A stretch of DNA of 64,000 bases, from sequence record PZ445489.1; one strand, written 5' to 3'. The notes under the pieces are model-generated. The model was not told where the DNA came from, ran no database searches, and saw only the letters and a program-made list of their open reading frames with translations. The stretch comes from a phage. Position 1 is the first letter of the stretch, and every line of letters begins with the position of its first letter. This document shows positions 19,754 through 41,884 of the stretch, piece by piece. The position numbers were made by a program, and so were the translations under genes.

Positions 19754-19975
19754 ATGGGAAACGTCGTTCATCTGAGCCGTAAAACTAAAATACATCGTAC
19801 TTCACTGAGTGCTGCTAATATGATTACACGTAAGGAAGGGGAAGAAAGTCCTAAGACAACCCTAGCGTGGAAAATTGTAACCTCAAACCCAAATAAACCA
19901 TTCAATTATAACGAGCTGAGCACCTCCATAGATATTCTATTAAAAGAAGTAGCTAGAGCTAAAGTAATTGAATAA
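19754..19975 (+). CDS. hypothetical protein (73 aa)
   Basis: ATG 19754 after GGGGAAGG RBS; track ORF 19685 overlaps phoH. Confidence 0.45.
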   Translation: MGNVVHLSRKTKIHRTSLSAANMITRKEGEESPKTTLAWKIVTSNPNKPFNYNELSTSIDILLKEVARAKVIE

Positions 19976-20116
19976 GCTAAAAAGCTAGACTGGTAATATA
20001 CAGGCCTGGGTATGAAAATACTCGGGCCTTTTCTATCAGAAAATTTTATTTGCCTAATGACCAATAATAATGTAGAATATTCCTTAAATCCTGATAACTA
20101 TAAAAAGGAAAGCCAA

Positions 20117-22447
20117 ATGAGCCATCGCATTGAAAAAGTAATTAAACGTGACGGTACTGTAGAAGACTTTGCTCCTGAAAAACTCAATGGTTGGGCAGAG
20201 TATGGTTGCAAAACAGTTGATGTAAGTTGGTCAGCCATTACTATGGCTGCTCAAAAAACTCTACCTAAAGGGGTTGTAGATTCCGACACTCTGATGGACG
20301 CATTAATTAAAGCTGCTGAAAGTCTTATCAAAGATAATCCAGCATACGATGTGCCAGCAAAGGAATTACGTCTTGCGCAAATGCGTAAACGCCTTTATGA
20401 TTCTTTCGAACCACCCTCTCTACGCTTCTTCCATGACCATATGGTTAGCGTAGGTGCATGGGAAGACATGAGTGCATGGATTACCGATGAGCAATTTGAA
20501 GCTCTGAATCAGGTTATAGACCACGATCGTGACCGTCTTTTTACTAGTGGTGGACTGAAGCAGTTCTTTGATAAGTATTCCCGTCGTAACATAGCCACTG
20601 GTGAAATTTACGAAACCCCGCAGTTTGCCTACATGGGTATGGCAATGGCGATGTTATCTCAACCTAACTGGACAATTCTAGATGCAATCGACCTCTACAA
20701 CGCAATGTCACTCCACAAAATCAACGTTCCTACGCCGCCACTGGTTGGTCTGCGCTCTAGTGACCGTGGATTTGCTAGTTGCTGCCTCGTGGATTCCACT
20801 GACACGTTGGATTCAATCGACACCGCCGAGCACATCGTCTTCAAAATGGTCGCAGCCAGAGCGGGAATCGGGTATCATCTTGAAAGCCGATCAATTGCTG
20901 ATCCGGTGCGAAATGGGGCATTCCCACATTCCGGAAAACTGCCATATTATCGACACATTGACCGCTCAGTAAAGGCCAATACTCAGCAAACTCGTGGTGG
21001 TTCTGCCACAGTGTCTTATCCATACTTCGACCCTGAAATCATTCAATTGATGCAGGTTAAGCAACAACGTGCTACAGATGAGAATAAAATCGATAAGATG
21101 GATTATTCTCTGAGCTTTAACAATCTTTTGTTAAAACGTTATCTTAAAAACGAGGATATTACGCTAATGTCATACTTCTATGCTCCAGAAGTTCATGAAG
21201 CGTTTTATAGTGATGACGAGGCTAAATTTGAAGAAATCTACGTGGCAGCGGAGAAACGTGTGGCATCTCTTACAAAGATCGACCACGAAGGAAAAACAGT
21301 TCCTGCAGCTCCTAAAGTCTCTGCAAAAGAAATCCTAGATACTTGGCTACGTATCCGAATGGAAACAGGACGTATGTATGCTCATCACATCGGGGAATCT
21401 AATCGTCACGGTAACTTCCTTGATCCAATCCGTATGACAAACCTTTGTGTTGAAATTACTCAGCCTACGCGCCCGTTCCATCATATCACAGAACTGTATA
21501 AGACAAAAGAGCAGCTTGATCAAATGAAGCCGGAGGATATTGGTGAAGTATCTCTGTGTAACTTAGGTGGTGTTGTACTGGGGCGCATGGAATCTCTGGC
21601 TGAGTGGGAAAAAACTTGCTACATCCTCCTGAAATTCGTTGATACAATTATTGAAATTCAGGATTATCCGTTCCCAACTATGGAATATACGGCTAAGAAA
21701 CGTCGTAATGTTGGTATTGGCCTAATGAACGCAGCAGGTGCAATGGCAGCAGAAGGTCTGGCTTATGAAGGTATTGAAGCCCGTAACTGGATTCACCGTG
21801 AGGCTGAAAAACTGTCCTACTTCCTGCATAAAGCCTCTGTACGCCTAGCTAAAGAACAGGGTGCATGTGAGTGGTTTGATCGTACTAAACCATCTAAAGG
21901 AATTCTGGTAATCGACACGTACAAGAAAACTGTTGATGAACTGGTATCCGTAGGTCTAGAAATGGATTGGGAGTCTCTGCGTGCAGATATTCTGAAATAC
22001 GGTATGCGTAACTCTGTTCTGACTGCTCAGATGCCAGGAGAAAGTTCTTCTGTTCTGTTAGGTGTTACTAATTCTATTGAACCGCCTCGTAAGATTGTAT
22101 CTATCAAGGGTAGTGCAGTGAATAAAGTAATTGCAATTGCTCCGGGTGCAACCGATTGGGAAACGTTAATGAGCTATAAACTGGCTTATGATGTAGATCG
22201 TATCGAGTGGATCAAATGGGTAGCAACTATGCAGAAATTCTTCAGTCAGTCTATCAGTACGAATATGTACTATGACTACACCAAGTTTGAGAATGAAATC
22301 ATTCCTGGTCCAGTAGTAGTTCGTGATTTCATGACTGCTGTTAAGTATGGGTGGAAGACTTTCTACTACGCAAACTTCAACACCGCTAATGGTGGTGGTG
22401 CAGGGGAAGAATCCGCAGGCTGCGCTTCTGGTGGTTGTACCATCTAA
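20117..22447 (+). CDS. nrdA: ribonucleotide reductase large subunit (class Ia)
   Basis: ATP-cone VIKRDGTVEDFAPEKL at N-terminus, active-site NLCVEI, C-terminal Cys pair; ATG 20117 with RBS AAAGGAAAG. Confidence 0.9.
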   Translation: MSHRIEKVIKRDGTVEDFAPEKLNGWAEYGCKTVDVSWSAITMAAQKTLPKGVVDSDTLMDALIKAAESLIKDNPAYDVPAKELRLAQMRKRLYDSFEPPSLRFFHDHMVSVGAWEDMSAWITDEQFEALNQVIDHDRDRLFTSGGLKQFFDKYSRRNIATGEIYETPQFAYMGMAMAMLSQPNWTILDAIDLYNAMSLHKINVPTPPLVGLRSSDRGFASCCLVDSTDTLDSIDTAEHIVFKMVAARAGIGYHLESRSIADPVRNGAFPHSGKLPYYRHIDRSVKANTQQTRGGSATVSYPYFDPEIIQLMQVKQQRATDENKIDKMDYSLSFNNLLLKRYLKNEDITLMSYFYAPEVHEAFYSDDEAKFEEIYVAAEKRVASLTKIDHEGKTVPAAPKVSAKEILDTWLRIRMETGRMYAHHIGESNRHGNFLDPIRMTNLCVEITQPTRPFHHITELYKTKEQLDQMKPEDIGEVSLCNLGGVVLGRMESLAEWEKTCYILLKFVDTIIEIQDYPFPTMEYTAKKRRNVGIGLMNAAGAMAAEGLAYEGIEARNWIHREAEKLSYFLHKASVRLAKEQGACEWFDRTKPSKGILVIDTYKKTVDELVSVGLEMDWESLRADILKYGMRNSVLTAQMPGESSSVLLGVTNSIEPPRKIVSIKGSAVNKVIAIAPGATDWETLMSYKLAYDVDRIEWIKWVATMQKFFSQSISTNMYYDYTKFENEIIPGPVVVRDFMTAVKYGWKTFYYANFNTANGGGAGEESAGCASGGCTI

Positions 22448-22506
22448 TATTAACAAGGGGACATACGTCCCCTTTATTAGACCTTCTATGGCTGTAATTT
22501 TAAATT

Positions 22507-22989
22507 ATGGAAGAAAAATACAAAGAAATAGTGGGGTTATTTGATTATAATCCAGAAACAGGGATATTTACCCATAAAGCTAGAGAAGATAAATCCTTCA
22601 ATACTAGATTTGCTGGCAAAGAAGCTGGTTCTCTAGAAAAATGCTCTGGATATATTGTAATGCAAGTAAAAGGCACTAAGTATTACGCGCATATCCTAGC
22701 ATTCCTTATCGTTAATGGGTATATTCCAAAGGAAGTAGATCACGATAATAGAATACGGCACGATAACCGAGCTATTAATTTAAAGGCCTCTGACAGACAC
22801 AGTAATGGTAAAAATGTCGGGGCGCACAAAGATAATAAATTAGGTATTAAAAATATTCACCAAAAAGCGAGTGGATCTTACCAGGTACAGATAGCCCGTA
22901 AAGGTGTAAAATATACTAAAACATTCAAAGAACTTGAGGATGCTATAGAGTGGCGCGATATGAAACTATTGGAGCTTGATAGTTTATAA
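22507..22989 (+). CDS. HNH homing endonuclease
   Basis: VDHDNRIRHDNRAINL HNH motif; sits between nrdA and nrdB. Confidence 0.65.
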   Translation: MEEKYKEIVGLFDYNPETGIFTHKAREDKSFNTRFAGKEAGSLEKCSGYIVMQVKGTKYYAHILAFLIVNGYIPKEVDHDNRIRHDNRAINLKASDRHSNGKNVGAHKDNKLGIKNIHQKASGSYQVQIARKGVKYTKTFKELEDAIEWRDMKLLELDSL

Positions 22990-22995
22990 TTTTAC

Positions 22996-23024
22996 TTGCT
23001 AATCGCTACCAGATTTGCTATAAT
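22996..23024 (+). promoter_or_regulatory. early-type promoter upstream of nrdB
   Basis: TTGCTA-17-TATAAT. Confidence 0.55.
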
Positions 23025-23055
23025 ATTCCTGAAATAGTGAGAAAGAGGAAAATCA

Positions 23056-24201
23056 ATGACTACTTTACTAAACCTGAATTGGGATCATACTAATGCTGAC
23101 CTTTTCCTGGGAGATTCTCTCGGTATCGCAGATTATGTACGTGTAGCACATCCAGAACTAGAACGTCTGGCACTTCTGCAACGCTCTCAATTTTGGACTG
23201 AAACTGAGATCAGTCTGGAAGCAGATAAGAAACAATGGCCTAACCTCCCACGGGAAATTCAGGAAATTACACTCCTGAACTTAGCATGGCAGACTCAAAC
23301 AGACTCCTTTATCAGTCGTGCTCCTGAAGCAGCTATTATGCCACTTGTAAGTCGTCCAGAATTGGAAGGTATGCTCAAACAGTGGAGCTATTTTGAAGAC
23401 CTGCATAGTCGTGCTTATAGCAATATTATTCGTAATGTGCTGACTGACCCAGCAGAATTTATTGATTCTGTAACCAAAAACCAAGAAGCATTCGCACGCA
23501 TCGCTGATTCTGTTGAACTATTCGATGAACTGTACCTGTTAGGTCAGTATTTCATTGCAGTACGCGATCATCGTGGCGACAATACATACCCAGAAACTGA
23601 GTTCCCTGAAGTTAAACGTGAAACTCAGGCTAAACTATTAGACGCTTACTTTGCGATCTACGGTCTGGAAGCAATGCAGTTTTACGCATCCTTTGCATGT
23701 ACCTTTGCATTAGCAGAGAATGATATTCTGCAAGGTATTGCTAAAAATCTGCAATTAATCGCTAAAGATGAAGCTCTGCATACTCAGATGTCCAAAGCAA
23801 TCATCCAGATTATGTTTCAGCAATTTGACAAAGATCTGGTAGATGAAGCAGTGGCTAAAGCACCAGCACAGCTCCTGAAAACTCTGAAAACTGAAATTGA
23901 ATGGGGTCATTTCATTTTCAAAGGTCGTAGTCTGATTGGCTTGAACGCAGAACTTCTAGAAGAATATCTGTACTTTGTGGGGCGTAATGCATTTATGCAC
24001 ATTGGTGTAGAATGGCCTAGTCACTTACCAGTAATCACCAAAAACCCTATTCCGTGGATCATGAACTGGTTGGATACTACTTCTCTACAGCCTGCTCCAC
24101 AAGAAATTCAGATTGGTGCAGCTTACCGTGTAGGTCAGGTAACTGAGACATCTACTGATACTCTGAAAGATCTGGGTAATGAATTTGGAGATTTCTTATG
24201 A
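23056..24201 (+). CDS. nrdB: ribonucleotide reductase small subunit
   Basis: Size, adjacency to nrdA, ferritin-like helical pattern with E..H pairs. Confidence 0.8.
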   Translation: MTTLLNLNWDHTNADLFLGDSLGIADYVRVAHPELERLALLQRSQFWTETEISLEADKKQWPNLPREIQEITLLNLAWQTQTDSFISRAPEAAIMPLVSRPELEGMLKQWSYFEDLHSRAYSNIIRNVLTDPAEFIDSVTKNQEAFARIADSVELFDELYLLGQYFIAVRDHRGDNTYPETEFPEVKRETQAKLLDAYFAIYGLEAMQFYASFACTFALAENDILQGIAKNLQLIAKDEALHTQMSKAIIQIMFQQFDKDLVDEAVAKAPAQLLKTLKTEIEWGHFIFKGRSLIGLNAELLEEYLYFVGRNAFMHIGVEWPSHLPVITKNPIPWIMNWLDTTSLQPAPQEIQIGAAYRVGQVTETSTDTLKDLGNEFGDFL

Positions 24202-24731
24202 TTACAGCAATGTATGCAGTTGGGCCGAATGGGGAGTTCGGCCTCCGCGGTAAACTTCCATGGGGTTCCTTCAAAGAAGAACTAGATGCTTTCTATTCTC
24301 AACTGGACGTGTTGAATCCAGATAACATCATCATTGGTGCGGGTACTTATTTAGCTCTTCCATACGCCGTTAGAGAACGTATGATTGGAGCTTCTGACCT
24401 ATTTATTCGTGCTGATCGTCCACTGCCAGACGATATTACACATGATATTTACACTCCAATTTCTAAGATTGGGGATGCTTTACCTACATTTCTGAAAGAT
24501 CAGCAGACAGTAGTTCTAGGTGGGGCTAACCTTCTTCTAGAAATGTATATTCATGGACATATTGAAAGTGCTTTTGTATCCACAATCTTTAGTGATCAAA
24601 AACTAGAGGCAGATGTACATCTGGATAATACGATTCTAGATTACAACTACGAATCTACTCGTTTAGTTTACGCAACTGGCGCAAACAGTGATAACAGCCT
24701 GCGATTTGTACAGGAATTGGTTACTTATTAA
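24198..24731 (+). CDS. frd: dihydrofolate reductase
   Basis: N-terminal AVGPNGEFG..GKLPW resembles DHFR motif; located upstream of thyA. Confidence 0.6.
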   Translation: MITAMYAVGPNGEFGLRGKLPWGSFKEELDAFYSQLDVLNPDNIIIGAGTYLALPYAVRERMIGASDLFIRADRPLPDDITHDIYTPISKIGDALPTFLKDQQTVVLGGANLLLEMYIHGHIESAFVSTIFSDQKLEADVHLDNTILDYNYESTRLVYATGANSDNSLRFVQELVTY

Positions 24732-25570: not shown

Positions 25571-25611
25571 CTCAAATAGCCCTTTCGGGGGCTATTATAT
25601 TTAAATTTCAT

Positions 25612-25640
25612 TTGCTTATTTAGTGAAATTTAAATATAAT
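25612..25640 (+). promoter_or_regulatory. early-type promoter
   Basis: AAATTTCATTTGCTT..17..TATAAT + ATATTTTATAAATTGGAGG. Confidence 0.55.
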
Positions 25641-25665
25641 ATATTTTATAAATTGGAGGTATACA

Positions 25666-25947
25666 ATGATTTCAGCCAAAGAAGCCCAAGAACTTGCAGG
25701 ATTAACAGAAGTACCCGCATTTCTAAAGTTTATAGAAGAAAAGATTGTAGAAGCTGCTAAGTCTGGAAATACAGAAGTAATTATTCGAGATAATCCTTAC
25801 GCTAGGTGGCTATATAATCCTAGAGAAATGCCAGGAGCAGCTAAATCGGTACTAAAAACCTTATCGGATAAGGGGTATCATCTCTCACAATACTACCGAG
25901 AAGCCGCCTTTGTAGACATGGGTCTTAAAATTAGTTGGGAGGTATAA
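25666..25947 (+). CDS. hypothetical protein (93 aa)
   Basis: ORF with promoter and RBS. Confidence 0.5.
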   Translation: MISAKEAQELAGLTEVPAFLKFIEEKIVEAAKSGNTEVIIRDNPYARWLYNPREMPGAAKSVLKTLSDKGYHLSQYYREAAFVDMGLKISWEV

Positions 25948-26423
25948 TGTCGGTTTTCCACATTTATACAGATGGTGCTTGTAAGTCTAACCCAGGTCCA
26001 GGTGCCTGGGGTTTTATTGTCTATGATGATAACGACGATCGTTTAGGTTCTAAATCTGGTTATAATCCTAAAACTACAAATAATGAGATGGAACTCACAG
26101 CTATCGTAGAAGCCCTACGTTGGTCTGTTAAAAAAGATAATAGACCAATTGCTATCTATACTGACTCTGCTTATTGCAAAAATGGTATGGAAAGTTGGAT
26201 GTTTTCTTGGCAAAGGAAAGGCTGGAAGAAAGCAGATGGTGAAGTTCCTCTTAATCTAGAACTTTGGCAGGAAGCATTTAAATTAACACAGCAGTATATC
26301 AACTTTCATAATACTAATCCTACCTTTATTAAGGTTAAAGGACATTCTGGTATTAGTGGTAATGAAGCTGTAGATGCATTGTGTAACACAGTTATTACTG
26401 AGCAAGAACTTGCCGAGATGTGA
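25935..26423 (+). CDS. rnh: ribonuclease H
   Basis: IYTDGACKSNPGPGAWGF classic RNase HI N-terminal motif. Confidence 0.8.
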   Translation: MGGIMSVFHIYTDGACKSNPGPGAWGFIVYDDNDDRLGSKSGYNPKTTNNEMELTAIVEALRWSVKKDNRPIAIYTDSAYCKNGMESWMFSWQRKGWKKADGEVPLNLELWQEAFKLTQQYINFHNTNPTFIKVKGHSGISGNEAVDALCNTVITEQELAEM

Positions 26424-26499
26424 TAAATAAATTAAAAATCTTCTTGCTTAAAGCCCTCTAATTTAGTATAATATTCGTATTGAAAGTGAGGAGGGCTTT

Positions 26500-26778
26500 A
26501 TGCGAATTTATAACTCAAATTCATTAGGATTTAAACCGTTGAGAAAACGTGCACAATCACCTCGTCAAATAAGAAAGGCTAATATTGGTGAGCCAGAGAC
26601 ACGTCTTCCGCCTCCTCCAGAACAACGTTTAGTTTATCTGGACGAAGAGTTAGCTGAACGCGAAAGAAAAGCTCAAGAAGAGATTGAGCGTAAGAAAATG
26701 TGTACTGCTCCAGCGTATAATAAAGGAGCGTATCAATATGTTTCCGACGCAGAACAAGCTAAGATGGTTGGTAGATAA
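26500..26778 (+). CDS. hypothetical protein (92 aa)
   Basis: ORF with RBS. Confidence 0.5.
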   Translation: MRIYNSNSLGFKPLRKRAQSPRQIRKANIGEPETRLPPPPEQRLVYLDEELAERERKAQEEIERKKMCTAPAYNKGAYQYVSDAEQAKMVGR

Positions 26779-41432: not shown

Positions 41433-41819
41433 GTGTGTACAAAAACATGTAGAGCCTGTGGGAATGAATATCCGTTAACAACCGAATATTTTTATTCGAA
41501 TGGATTTACTCCTAATGGCACAAAGAAGTGGAAGCCAACATGTAAAGCATGTGAAAAAGCTGAACGAGTAGCTGGACATGAAGAATTAATTAAAGAAGTA
41601 TTTCCTGTATTAGAATGTAGTATTTGTGGATATAATAGGTGTAAACAAGCCCTAGATTTCCACCGTACTAATCCAGAAGAAAAGGAATACTCCATTGCAA
41701 GGTTTAGAACTTCTCGTAGAAACAGAGAAGTAGTAATAGCAGAACTTAAAAAGTGCGTACTATTATGCTCTAACTGCCATAGAGAAGTACATGCTGGATT
41801 AATAAATTTGGGCGAATAG
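41433..41819 (+). CDS. HNH endonuclease
   Basis: C-terminal CVLLCSNCHREVHAG HNH motif plus CxxC pairs; GTG start per ORF track; 3' end overlaps tRNA-Ala. Confidence 0.65.
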   Translation: MCTKTCRACGNEYPLTTEYFYSNGFTPNGTKKWKPTCKACEKAERVAGHEELIKEVFPVLECSICGYNRCKQALDFHRTNPEEKEYSIARFRTSRRNREVVIAELKKCVLLCSNCHREVHAGLINLGE

Positions 41820-41884
41820 TGTCAGCGGGAGCACACCAGACTTGCAATCTGGTAGGGAGGGTTCGAGTCCCTCTTTGTCCACCA
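41810..41884 (+). tRNA. tRNA-Ala (UGC)
   Basis: Acceptor GGGCGAA/TTTGTCC (2 GU), D stem GTGT/ACAC, anticodon stem CCAGA/TCTGG loop CTTGCAA, T-arm GAGGG-TTCGAGT-CCCTC, CCA. Confidence 0.65.

What the first reader, a model, noticed from the sequence alone, without database searches (positions are those of the whole stretch)
22507..22989. HNH endonuclease inserted between nrdA and nrdB
A freestanding HNH gene sits exactly between the two aerobic RNR subunit genes, a classic homing-endonuclease target, and is followed by its own promoter for nrdB. A second HNH gene lies in the tRNA cluster (41433-41819).
Basis: partly seen in the sequence, partly recalled or inferred. Interest (0 to 1): 0.4.

Follow-up and report, generated by a model that had tools for sequence, protein, structure and literature searches.

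The report
Homing HNH endonuclease between phage RNR genes
A small selfish nuclease gene sits between the two ribonucleotide-reductase genes of this T5-like phage, as already annotated in dozens of related phages, so it is real and tidy but ordinary.

Summary
Confirmed and ordinary. The window comes from a T5-like phage (Demerecviridae). ORF 22507-22989 (160 aa) lies between nrdA (20012-22447) and nrdB (23056-24201). It passes Pfam HNH_3 (E 5.5e-9), and the putative catalytic residues D78/H79/N91/N100 are invariant in nine homologues. Its model has an I-HmuI-like nuclease half and an AP2-like DNA-binding tail.

The gene is optional. About 48 of ~440 T5-like records carry this allele and most have an empty 106-107 bp spacer. 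T5, AKFV33 and one other lineage carry different HNH genes (34-42% identity) inserted about 40 bp further downstream.

The insert is AT-rich (35% vs 42-43% GC) and under strong purifying selection (dN/dS 0.04-0.06). It is linked to a recoded patch in the last ~45 nt of nrdA and to an altered terminator. That pattern fits a free-standing homing endonuclease whose target lies there, but the target is inferred, not shown.

- The nrdB promoter (22996-23024) is ancestral. Empty-site phages have it too.
- The second HNH-like ORF (41433-41819) matches only PHROG families, and the window copy has H78R in the invariant FHH motif.

The same gene is annotated as an HNH or homing endonuclease in GenBank, and the nrdA-nrdB HNH site in T5-likes was noted in 2012.

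The parts
20012..22447 (+). nrdA, class Ia RNR large subunit (811 aa)
   Evidence: Pfam Ribonuc_red_lgC E 2e-119 and Ribonuc_red_lgN E 8.6e-12. Same length as the annotated nrdA of phiP4, FGS017 and Kenya-K44.
22405..22447 (+). Recoded 3' end of nrdA (codons for ...EESAGCASGGCTI*). Candidate immunity or co-conversion tract and candidate target region of the HNH.
   Evidence: Each HNH-bearing phage differs from its closest HNH-less relative at 9-16 of 49 alignment columns here, against 0-5 of 96 further upstream. W1 carries substitutions, W2 a 6-nt insertion and W3 a 3-nt deletion next to one another at ~22403-22413. Columns 22414, 22420 and 22423 are diagnostic.
22455..22479 (+). nrdA terminator hairpin (GGGGAC-ATAC-GTCCCC, then TTTATT). 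Its sequence differs from the ancestral terminator of every phage that lacks this HNH type.
   Evidence: RNA fold -20.4 kcal/mol, z = -3.4; a hairpin was also found by the scan. All 25 non-W loci share AAGGAGATCTTCGGGTCTCC, whereas W1, W2 and W3 each have a different hairpin.
22482..22988 (+). Inserted cassette core (~505 bp), absent from empty-site phages
   Evidence: Alignments A1: the empty spacer is 106-107 bp and this one is 608 bp. The right junction lies directly before TTTTACTTGCTAAT (the -35 box).
22507..22989 (+). HNH endonuclease gene (160 aa), free-standing
   Evidence: The protein is 99.4% and 98.8% identical to the genes annotated 'HNH endonuclease' and 'homing endonuclease' in FGS017 and Kenya-K44.
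22681..22806 (+). HNH_3 (beta-beta-alpha-metal) nuclease motif, residues 59-100, including D78, H79, N91 and N100
   Evidence: Pfam match. These residues are invariant in 9 homologues down to 35% identity. Residues 1-101 of the model superpose on I-HmuI, PDB 1U3E.
22843..22983 (+). AP2-like C-terminal DNA-binding domain (three strands plus a helix, residues ~113-159)
   Evidence: AF2 secondary structure E117-119, E125-131, E134-140, H143-159, pLDDT ~91. Foldseek hits to the Arabidopsis TEM1 AP2 domain have probability 0.8-0.9 but weak E-values and only 33-42 aligned columns.
22996..23024 (+). nrdB promoter-like site (TTGCTA-17-TATAAT). Ancestral, not part of the insertion.
   Evidence: Window 22988-23055, which holds this site, is 98.5-100% identical in the sampled phages whose match runs through to nrdB, including empty-site phages. 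A promoter is annotated at this position in T5, AKFV33 and Bf23.
23056..24201 (+). nrdB, RNR small subunit (381 aa)
   Evidence: Pfam Ribonuc_red_sm E 2.2e-35.
41433..41819 (+). Second, unrelated HNH-like ORF (CxxC...FH[H>R]...CxxCH type) inserted directly upstream of tRNA-Ala. Its stop codon lies inside the tRNA gene.
   Evidence: PHROG 2255, E 4.6e-31. tblastn hits in 367 phage records, several of those sampled annotated HNH endonuclease and some lying among tRNA genes. Only 9 of 430 T5-like records hold this insertion. H78R relative to Elw and MET_P1_179_112.

Best explanation
ORF 22507-22989 encodes a free-standing homing endonuclease of the I-HmuI/HNH_3 group. It has an N-terminal beta-sheet region and a beta-beta-alpha-metal nuclease, followed by an AP2-like DNA-binding domain. 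It is carried on a ~0.5 kb AT-rich cassette lodged between the nrdA terminator and the -35 box of the nrdB promoter of a T5-like phage.

Proposed mechanism (inferred): when this phage co-infects a cell with a relative whose nrdA-nrdB spacer is empty, the enzyme nicks or cuts the relative's DNA. The cut would fall in or next to the conserved 3' end of nrdA and its terminator, which encode the essential C-terminal Cys-x4-Cys tail. Recombinational repair then uses the HNH-bearing genome as template and copies the cassette plus adjoining sequence into the recipient.

The carrier genome would be protected by its recoded nrdA tail and altered terminator. Expression is probably low and depends on read-through of the nrdA terminator, because no promoter or Shine-Dalgarno sequence precedes the ATG.

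Shown here: gene, domains, conserved catalytic residues, purifying selection, insertion polymorphism, cassette boundaries, and the recoded flank. Inferred: cleavage, target position, nicking versus double-strand cutting, mobility, and the expression route.
For: - Domain: Pfam HNH_3 above cutoff; PHROG 99 E 4.2e-49.
- Putative catalytic residues D78, H79, N91, N100 and N103 are invariant across homologues of 35-91% identity.
- Structure: AF2 model pLDDT 87. Best PDB match is the nicking homing endonuclease I-HmuI (1U3E, prob 1.00, 101 columns), followed by AP2 domains. This matches 'Group 2' of the His-Me finger classification, which lists HNH_3, I-HmuI and AP2 architectures (PMC5714182).
- Polymorphism: ~48 of 439 T5-like records hold this allele. 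Up to 289 of 440 contain the intact empty junction. 75 hold the unrelated T5-type HNH.
- In 37 loci aligned here, the empty spacer is 106-107 bp and this insert adds ~500 bp at one fixed point.
- Foreign composition: 35.4% GC against 43.1% and 41.8% for the flanking genes. Strong constraint: dN/dS 0.04-0.06.
- A recoded patch is confined to the last ~45 nt of nrdA plus the terminator. It takes a different form in each of the three sub-lineages and is absent on the nrdB side.
- Mirror image: the T5-, AKFV33- and L030-type HNH genes abut nrdB and are linked to a recoded first ~130 nt of nrdB.
- Precedent: T4 mobE lies between nrdA and nrdB, has no promoter of its own, and nicks nrdB of T2 (PMC2790892).
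Against: - No cleavage or inheritance data exist for this protein or any close relative. I found none in the literature searched.
- The recoded nrdA tract could reflect old co-conversion or lineage history rather than immunity. One empty-site phage (SP3, L022) carries the W2-like insertion.
- Foldseek E-values are weak: 4.9e-3 for I-HmuI and ~0.4 for AP2. Pfam AP2 and NUMOD models did not hit.
- The 37-locus sample is small and its members are phylogenetically related.
Confidence: 0.8

Rival explanations
1. The gene is a stranded or domesticated HNH. It once homed but is now only vertically inherited, or is kept because it damages competing phages (marker exclusion) without copying itself.
For: Each record holds essentially one copy, at one locus. 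Some copies look decayed: H8 is truncated to 145 aa and SB6 carries a partial tandem duplication. Expression signals are poor.
Against: dN/dS of 0.04-0.06 and invariant catalytic residues argue for an active enzyme. The allele occurs in both Tequintavirus and Epseptimavirus backbones, alongside closely related empty-site phages. Mosaics such as SP01 indicate exchange at this site.
Confidence: 0.13
2. The HNH serves a core phage function, such as making the site-specific single-strand nicks typical of T5 and BF23 DNA, or assisting DNA packaging.
For: The I-HmuI-type and T5 F-Tfl HNH enzymes are nickases (own knowledge and GenBank annotation of DT57C). T5-like genomes carry specific nicks (PMC10644984 abstract).
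Against: BF23 has nicked DNA but an empty nrdA-nrdB spacer. Most T5-like records lack any HNH here. The gene is not next to packaging genes.
Confidence: 0.03
3. The protein acts mainly as an AP2-type DNA-binding regulator of nrdB transcription, since it sits just upstream of the nrdB promoter.
For: A C-terminal AP2-like fold and a position adjacent to the promoter.
Against: The nuclease residues are fully conserved. nrdB and its promoter are the same in phages without the gene. Other HNH lineages occupy the site downstream of the promoter.
Confidence: 0.03

Closest known systems
The same gene as annotated in other T5-like phages: FGS017 'HNH endonuclease' XHH62893.1, Kenya-K44 'homing endonuclease' WCZ58129.1, and EPS7 'H-N-H endonuclease F-TfIVI' ACB97551.1
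   Same: Same locus, same length (160 aa), and 99.4%, 98.8% and 91.9% protein identity.
   Different: Nothing of substance. None has been characterised experimentally as far as the searched literature shows.
T5 hegH / 'P-TflVIII' (T5p093) and AKFV33 orf096, the other HNH genes in the T5-like nrdA-nrdB spacer (PMC3326045)
   Same: Same spacer, same HNH_3 domain and matching C-terminal sequence motifs, and also optional.
   Different: Only 37% and 42% identical. They are inserted downstream of the -10 box and abut nrdB, not upstream of the -35 box. They are linked to recoding of the nrdB 5' end rather than the nrdA 3' end.
T4 MobE (with Hef, which per own recollection replaces it in other T-even phages): free-standing HNH endonucleases between nrdA and nrdB
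   Same: Free-standing HNH gene in the nrdA-nrdB spacer, apparently without its own promoter. The target lies in a flanking RNR gene: MobE nicks T2 nrdB (PMC2790892).
   Different: Different phage family. MobE belongs to the classical HNH group (Group 1 in PMC5714182), not the HNH_3/I-HmuI group. The inferred target here is nrdA, not nrdB.
I-HmuI (PDB 1U3E), the intron-encoded HNH nicking endonuclease of Bacillus phage SPO1
   Same: Best structural match to residues 1-101. Same Pfam group, HNH_3 / His-Me Group 2.
   Different: I-HmuI is intron-encoded and has a helical/HTH C-terminal region. This protein is free-standing with an AP2-like tail. Sequence identity over the aligned region is 23% and phmmer finds no PDB match.

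Membership tests
HNH_3 / I-HmuI group of His-Me finger nucleases (Pfam PF13392) | Profile match above the curated threshold | tested here: met
   36 bits against a cutoff of 24.8, E 5.5e-9, residues 59-100.
HNH_3 / I-HmuI group of His-Me finger nucleases (Pfam PF13392) | Conserved general-base His and metal-binding or structural Asn/Asp residues | tested here: met
   D78, H79, N91, N100 and N103 are invariant in 9 sequences of 35-100% identity.
HNH_3 / I-HmuI group of His-Me finger nucleases (Pfam PF13392) | Beta-beta-alpha-metal fold | tested here: met
   AF2 model pLDDT 87 with strands 76-79 and 92-95 and helix 97-101. Top Foldseek PDB hit is I-HmuI 1U3E, prob 1.00, rmsd 3.1 over 101 columns, E 4.9e-3.
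HNH_3 / I-HmuI group of His-Me finger nucleases (Pfam PF13392) | Metal-dependent DNA nicking or cleavage activity | not testable with these tools
   Needs biochemistry.
AP2 DNA-binding domain (as in HNH-AP2 endonucleases) | Three-stranded sheet packed on a helix, with a profile or fold match | tested here: inconclusive
   The predicted topology fits, and Foldseek hits to TEM1 AP2 have prob 0.8-0.9. However, E is ~0.4 over only 33-42 columns, and Pfam AP2 gave no hit at E<=10.
Free-standing homing endonuclease gene | Presence/absence polymorphism at one fixed site among otherwise collinear relatives | tested here: met
   Empty spacer 106-107 bp against 604-608 bp occupied. About 48 of 439 records are occupied by this type.
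Free-standing homing endonuclease gene | Not embedded in an intron or intein | tested here: met
   The gene is intergenic, between the nrdA stop/terminator and the nrdB promoter. No Rfam intron or other RNA family is found in 19800-24400.
Free-standing homing endonuclease gene | Target site in the HEG-less allele near the insertion, with resistant variants in the carrier | tested here: inconclusive
   A sequence signature only. Recoding of nrdA 22405-22447 and the terminator is specific to carriers and differs among the three sub-lineages. No cleavage data exist.
Free-standing homing endonuclease gene | Nuclease-dependent, biased inheritance in mixed infection | not testable with these tools
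   Needs phage crosses.
Classical HNH (CxxC...HH...N...CxxCH) for the second ORF 41433-41819 | Profile match and intact His-His motif | tested here: not met
   PHROG 2255 E 4.6e-31, but no Pfam or NCBIfam hit. The invariant FHH is FHR in the window, with H78R compared with Elw, MET_P1_179_112 and four distant homologues. It is homologous to the family but probably not an active member.

The most novel reading that the evidence does not exclude
The 106-bp nrdA-nrdB spacer of T5-like phages may be a contested landing pad. At least four HNH-AP2 lineages use two insertion points about 40 bp apart. One lineage (this one) would target the codons of the NrdA C-terminal redox tail and its terminator, and the others would target the 5' end of nrdB. 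Each carries matching recoded 'immunity' patches, and none of the 37 loci sampled is occupied at both points. Mosaics such as SP01 (this HNH plus a T5-type nrdB patch) and SP3 (empty site with a carrier-type nrdA tail) would then record successive invasion, replacement and loss.
Probability: 0.45. Interest if true: 0.35.

Novelty: already known. Interest (0 to 1): 0.18.

Why it matters
It adds little that is new. HNH homing endonucleases beside RNR genes are a textbook pattern. This exact gene is already annotated in many T5-like genomes, and its site was discussed for AKFV33 in 2012. The modest value lies in the comparative picture. T5-like phages offer a natural series at one 106-bp spacer: empty, occupied upstream of the promoter, and occupied downstream of it by three other lineages, with recoded flanks pointing to the likely targets. 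That makes a convenient system for testing how competing homing endonucleases share or fight over one site. It also matters for phage-therapy cocktails of T5-like phages, where such genes bias the recombinant progeny.

Tried and rejected
- A sequence search of the HNH protein against PDB chains gave nothing, even at E<=10. Only the fold search linked it to I-HmuI.
- NCBIfam gave only a spurious sub-threshold GldH hit.
- Pfam at E<=10 showed no AP2, NUMOD or HTH model for the flanking regions of the protein.
- Rfam at E<=1 over 19800-24400 found no intron, riboswitch or other RNA family, so an intron-borne arrangement is rejected.
- phmmer with all four spacer HNH types and the tRNA-cluster ORF against every ORF of at least 50 aa in the window found no further paralogues.
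- The IMG/VR scan with the HNH protein returned only 4 loci, all already covered. The word-indexed protein search returned only 8 homologues, so the structure alignment is shallow.
- I looked for a promoter between the terminator and the HNH ATG. The scan found none, and by eye only poor hexamers with wrong spacing are present. I therefore dropped the idea of a cassette-borne promoter for this sub-lineage.
- The ungapped comparison of nrdA ends was misleading because of indels. It was replaced by a MAFFT alignment.
- The 'genome nickase' idea was rejected because BF23 has an empty spacer.
- The count of empty sites (289) is an upper bound, because BLAST pieces are joined across ~0.6 kb insertions.

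Full report
**1. What is at the coordinates**

The + strand carries an ATG...TAA ORF at exactly 22507-22989 (160 aa). Pfam identifies the upstream gene (20012-22447) as an RNR large subunit (Ribonuc_red_lgC E 2e-119, plus lgN and a weak ATP-cone). It identifies the downstream gene (23056-24201) as an RNR small subunit (E 2.2e-35). Next come dihydrofolate reductase, thymidylate synthase and RNase H; an anaerobic RNR gene lies upstream on the other strand.

Megablast of 21500-24200 hits 446 phage records. Every record inspected belongs to Demerecviridae/Markadamsvirinae (Tequintavirus or Epseptimavirus), that is, T5-like phages. The best hit is Salmonella phage FGS017 at 97.3%.

**2. Is it an HNH endonuclease?**

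Yes. The supporting evidence is as follows.
- Pfam HNH_3 scores 36 bits against a cutoff of 24.8 (E 5.5e-9, residues 59-100). PHROG 99 'HNH endonuclease' gives E 4.2e-49.
- In an alignment with eight database homologues of 35-91% identity, D78, H79, N91, L92, N100 and N103 are invariant.
- An AlphaFold2 model built on that alignment has mean pLDDT 87.
- The best solved-structure match is the nicking homing endonuclease I-HmuI (1U3E; prob 1.00, 101 columns, rmsd 3.1 A, E 4.9e-3).
- The C-terminal three-strand-plus-helix module (residues ~113-159) matches plant AP2 domains, but weakly (prob 0.8-0.9, E ~0.4, 33-42 columns).

HNH_3, I-HmuI and AP2 modules are exactly 'Group 2' of the published His-Me finger classification (PMC5714182).

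Phmmer against PDB sequences, NCBIfam, and the Pfam AP2/NUMOD models gave nothing useful.

The gene is under strong purifying selection. Between sub-lineages, dN/dS is 0.04-0.06 with dS above 1. Its GC content is 35.4%, against 43.1% for nrdA and 41.8% for nrdB.

**3. Is it an insertion?**

I aligned the window with 36 related loci, 33 of them distinct in this region after removing three duplicates. They came from nine GenBank regions and 27 IMG/VR loci found with NrdB. The spacer has several states.

| State | Spacer | Loci (incl. 3 duplicates) | Description |
|---|---|---|---|
| E (empty) | 106-107 bp | 17 | Terminator AAGGAGATCTTCGGGTCTCC-TTTTT followed directly by the promoter TTGCTA-17-TATAAT |
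| W (this gene) | 604-623 bp; 902 bp in SB6 | 9 | Sub-lineages W1 (window, FGS017, Kenya-K44), W2 (EPS7, SB6, FFH_1, SP01; ~90-92% aa identity) and W3 (S124, H8; 72-78%, with a different N-terminus) |
| T | 625-626 bp | 7 | T5 hegH/'P-TflVIII', also DT57C; 174 aa; 37% identical to W |
| A | 575 bp | 3 | AKFV33 orf096; 165 aa; 42% identical to W |
| X | 621 bp | 1 | Locus L030; 172 aa; 34% identical to W |

(Sources.)

The W cassette lies between the terminator and the -35 box. The T, A and X genes lie after the -10 box and abut nrdB.

Across the whole phage collection:
- 48 of 439 matching records contain at least 80% of the W gene.
- 75 contain the T5-type gene.
- Up to 289 of 440 contain the uninterrupted empty junction. 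This is an upper bound, because BLAST joins pieces across ~0.6 kb.

**4. Correction on the promoter**

The site TTGCTA-17-TATAAT at 22996-23024 is the best promoter-like match in the 6 kb scanned. It does not belong to the insertion. Window 22988-23055 is 98.5-100% identical in the sampled phages whose match runs through to nrdB, including empty-site phages. A promoter is annotated at this position in T5, AKFV33 and Bf23. The cassette slipped in just upstream of it and left the nrdB signals untouched.

No promoter-like site and no Shine-Dalgarno sequence precede the HNH ATG. The ATG follows a stable terminator hairpin (-20.4 kcal/mol, z -3.4) and can pair in a weak AU hairpin. I therefore infer low-level expression by terminator read-through. 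This was shown experimentally for promoterless mobE in T4 (PMC2790892).

**5. Where does it probably cut?**

Against the closest empty-site phage (phiP4), the window has about 1 mismatch per 100 nt across nrdA. The density rises to 8 per 100 in 22300-22399 and to 19 mismatches in the 77 aligned bases just before the insert. It falls back to 2-3 per 100 in nrdB.

In matched pairs, each W phage was compared with its nearest non-W relative. The last 43 nt of nrdA differ at 9-16 of 49 columns, against 0-5 of 96 further upstream.

All three W sub-lineages are altered next to one another in the last ~45 nt of nrdA, but in different ways:
- W1 by substitutions (GCA to TCC, GGT to GGC, TGT to TGC).
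- W2 by a 6-nt GCTGCT insertion.
- W3 by a 3-nt deletion.

Each sub-lineage also has its own terminator hairpin sequence, whereas all 25 non-W loci share one terminator.

The affected codons encode ...EEAAGCASGGC-xx, the C-terminal Cys-x4-Cys tail of class Ia R1. From established RNR biochemistry (own knowledge), this tail is essential for re-reduction of the active site. It is the kind of constrained sequence that homing endonucleases favour.

The T, A and X genes show the mirror image: a lineage-specific recoded patch in the first ~130 nt of nrdB.

I read these patches as co-conversion or immunity tracts that mark the targets. This is an inference from sequence and could be confounded by shared ancestry in a small sample.

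**6. Signs of turnover**

- SP01 has a W gene but the T-type nrdB patch.
- SP3 has an empty spacer but the W2-type GCTGCT insertion in nrdA.
- SB6 has a partial tandem duplication of the W gene.
- The H8 copy ends early, at 145 aa.

(Sources.) All fit the invasion, decay, loss and re-invasion cycle described for homing endonuclease genes.

**7. Rival explanations**

- *Core function such as genome nicking.* Excluded for practical purposes. BF23 has nicked DNA (PMC10644984 abstract) but an empty spacer, and most relatives lack any gene here.
- *Purely regulatory AP2 protein.* Unlikely given the conserved nuclease residues and the unchanged nrdB signals in phages without the gene.
- *Stranded, no longer mobile copy.* Cannot be excluded without crosses.

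**8. The second HNH**

ORF 41433-41819 (GTG start, 128 aa) sits in a genuine cluster of 23 tRNA genes. It is unrelated to the first gene. It has the CxxC...FHH...CxxCH layout, strong PHROG hits (E 4.6e-31), and tblastn hits in 367 phage records. Several of the sampled hits are annotated as HNH endonuclease and some lie among tRNA genes. Neither Pfam nor NCBIfam recognises it.

It is also an optional insertion. Only 9 of 430 T5-like records hold it. In phage S130 the site is empty. In the window the ORF runs into tRNA-Ala, so that its stop codon lies inside the tRNA gene.

The window copy differs from its two nearest relatives by a single residue, H78R. This falls in the His-His motif that is invariant in all six homologues compared. 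By analogy with other HNH enzymes (own knowledge), this is probably the general base, so this copy may be inactive, or the base call may be an error. Two GenBank records with the intact gene do not annotate it at all.

**9. Novelty**

Proteins 99.4% and 98.8% identical are annotated as 'HNH endonuclease' and 'homing endonuclease' in FGS017 and Kenya-K44, and the EPS7 version dates from 2008. The 2012 AKFV33 paper already pointed out an HNH gene between nrdA and nrdB in T5-like phages and drew the parallel with mobE (PMC3326045). The BF23 paper names homing endonucleases as the main source of differences among T5-like genomes. I found no experimental work on any spacer HNH of T5-like phages.

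The finding is therefore correct, well supported and already known. The two-insertion-point, mirrored-patch picture is a small addition.

Noticed in passing
window 41433-41819 (codon at 41664-41666): The tRNA-cluster HNH-like ORF has H78R (CAC CGT) in the 'DFHH' motif. That motif is invariant in its two near-identical relatives (Elw, MET_P1_179_112) and in four distant homologues. This is probably an inactivating change or a sequencing error.
   Followed up: partly
window 41810-41819 / tRNA-Ala 41810-41884: The last codons and the stop codon (TTG GGC GAA TAG) of the tRNA-cluster ORF are supplied by the 5' end of tRNA-Ala. The insertion lies directly against the tRNA gene, and the empty site is seen in phage S130 (L041).
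   Followed up: partly
L046 (OR621298.1 vB_EcoD-Elw) and L047 (OQ383622.1 MET_P1_179_112): The intact version of the tRNA-cluster HNH gene is not annotated as a CDS in these GenBank records. Only the tRNAs are listed.
   Followed up: no
L004 (MK809530.1 SB6) 1271-2051: Partial tandem duplication of the W-type HNH gene. A truncated N-terminal copy is followed by a full copy, giving a 902-bp spacer.
   Followed up: partly
L035 (SP01) and L022 (SP3), nrdA 3' and nrdB 5' ends: SP01 combines the W-type HNH with the recoded nrdB 5' patch otherwise seen only with T5-type and AKFV33-type HNH genes. SP3 has an empty spacer but the W2-type GCTGCT insertion in the nrdA tail. Both look like traces of replacement or loss.
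   Followed up: partly
L031 (phage H8, AC171169) HNH ORF: The W3-type copy ends at 145 aa, against 168 aa in S124, and so loses the C-terminal helix of the AP2-like domain. This is either a decayed copy or a sequence error.
   Followed up: no
window 22492-22510: The predicted RNA fold pairs the HNH start codon in a short AU-rich hairpin directly after the terminator, and no Shine-Dalgarno sequence is present. This may damp translation of the nuclease.
   Followed up: no
window 25600-25950 and 26450-26700, compared with phiP4, FGS017 and Kenya-K44: Further indel-rich or replaced segments lie downstream of thymidylate synthase, around the small ORFs before RNase H. They differ among otherwise ~97% identical phages and are another variable spot.
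   Followed up: no
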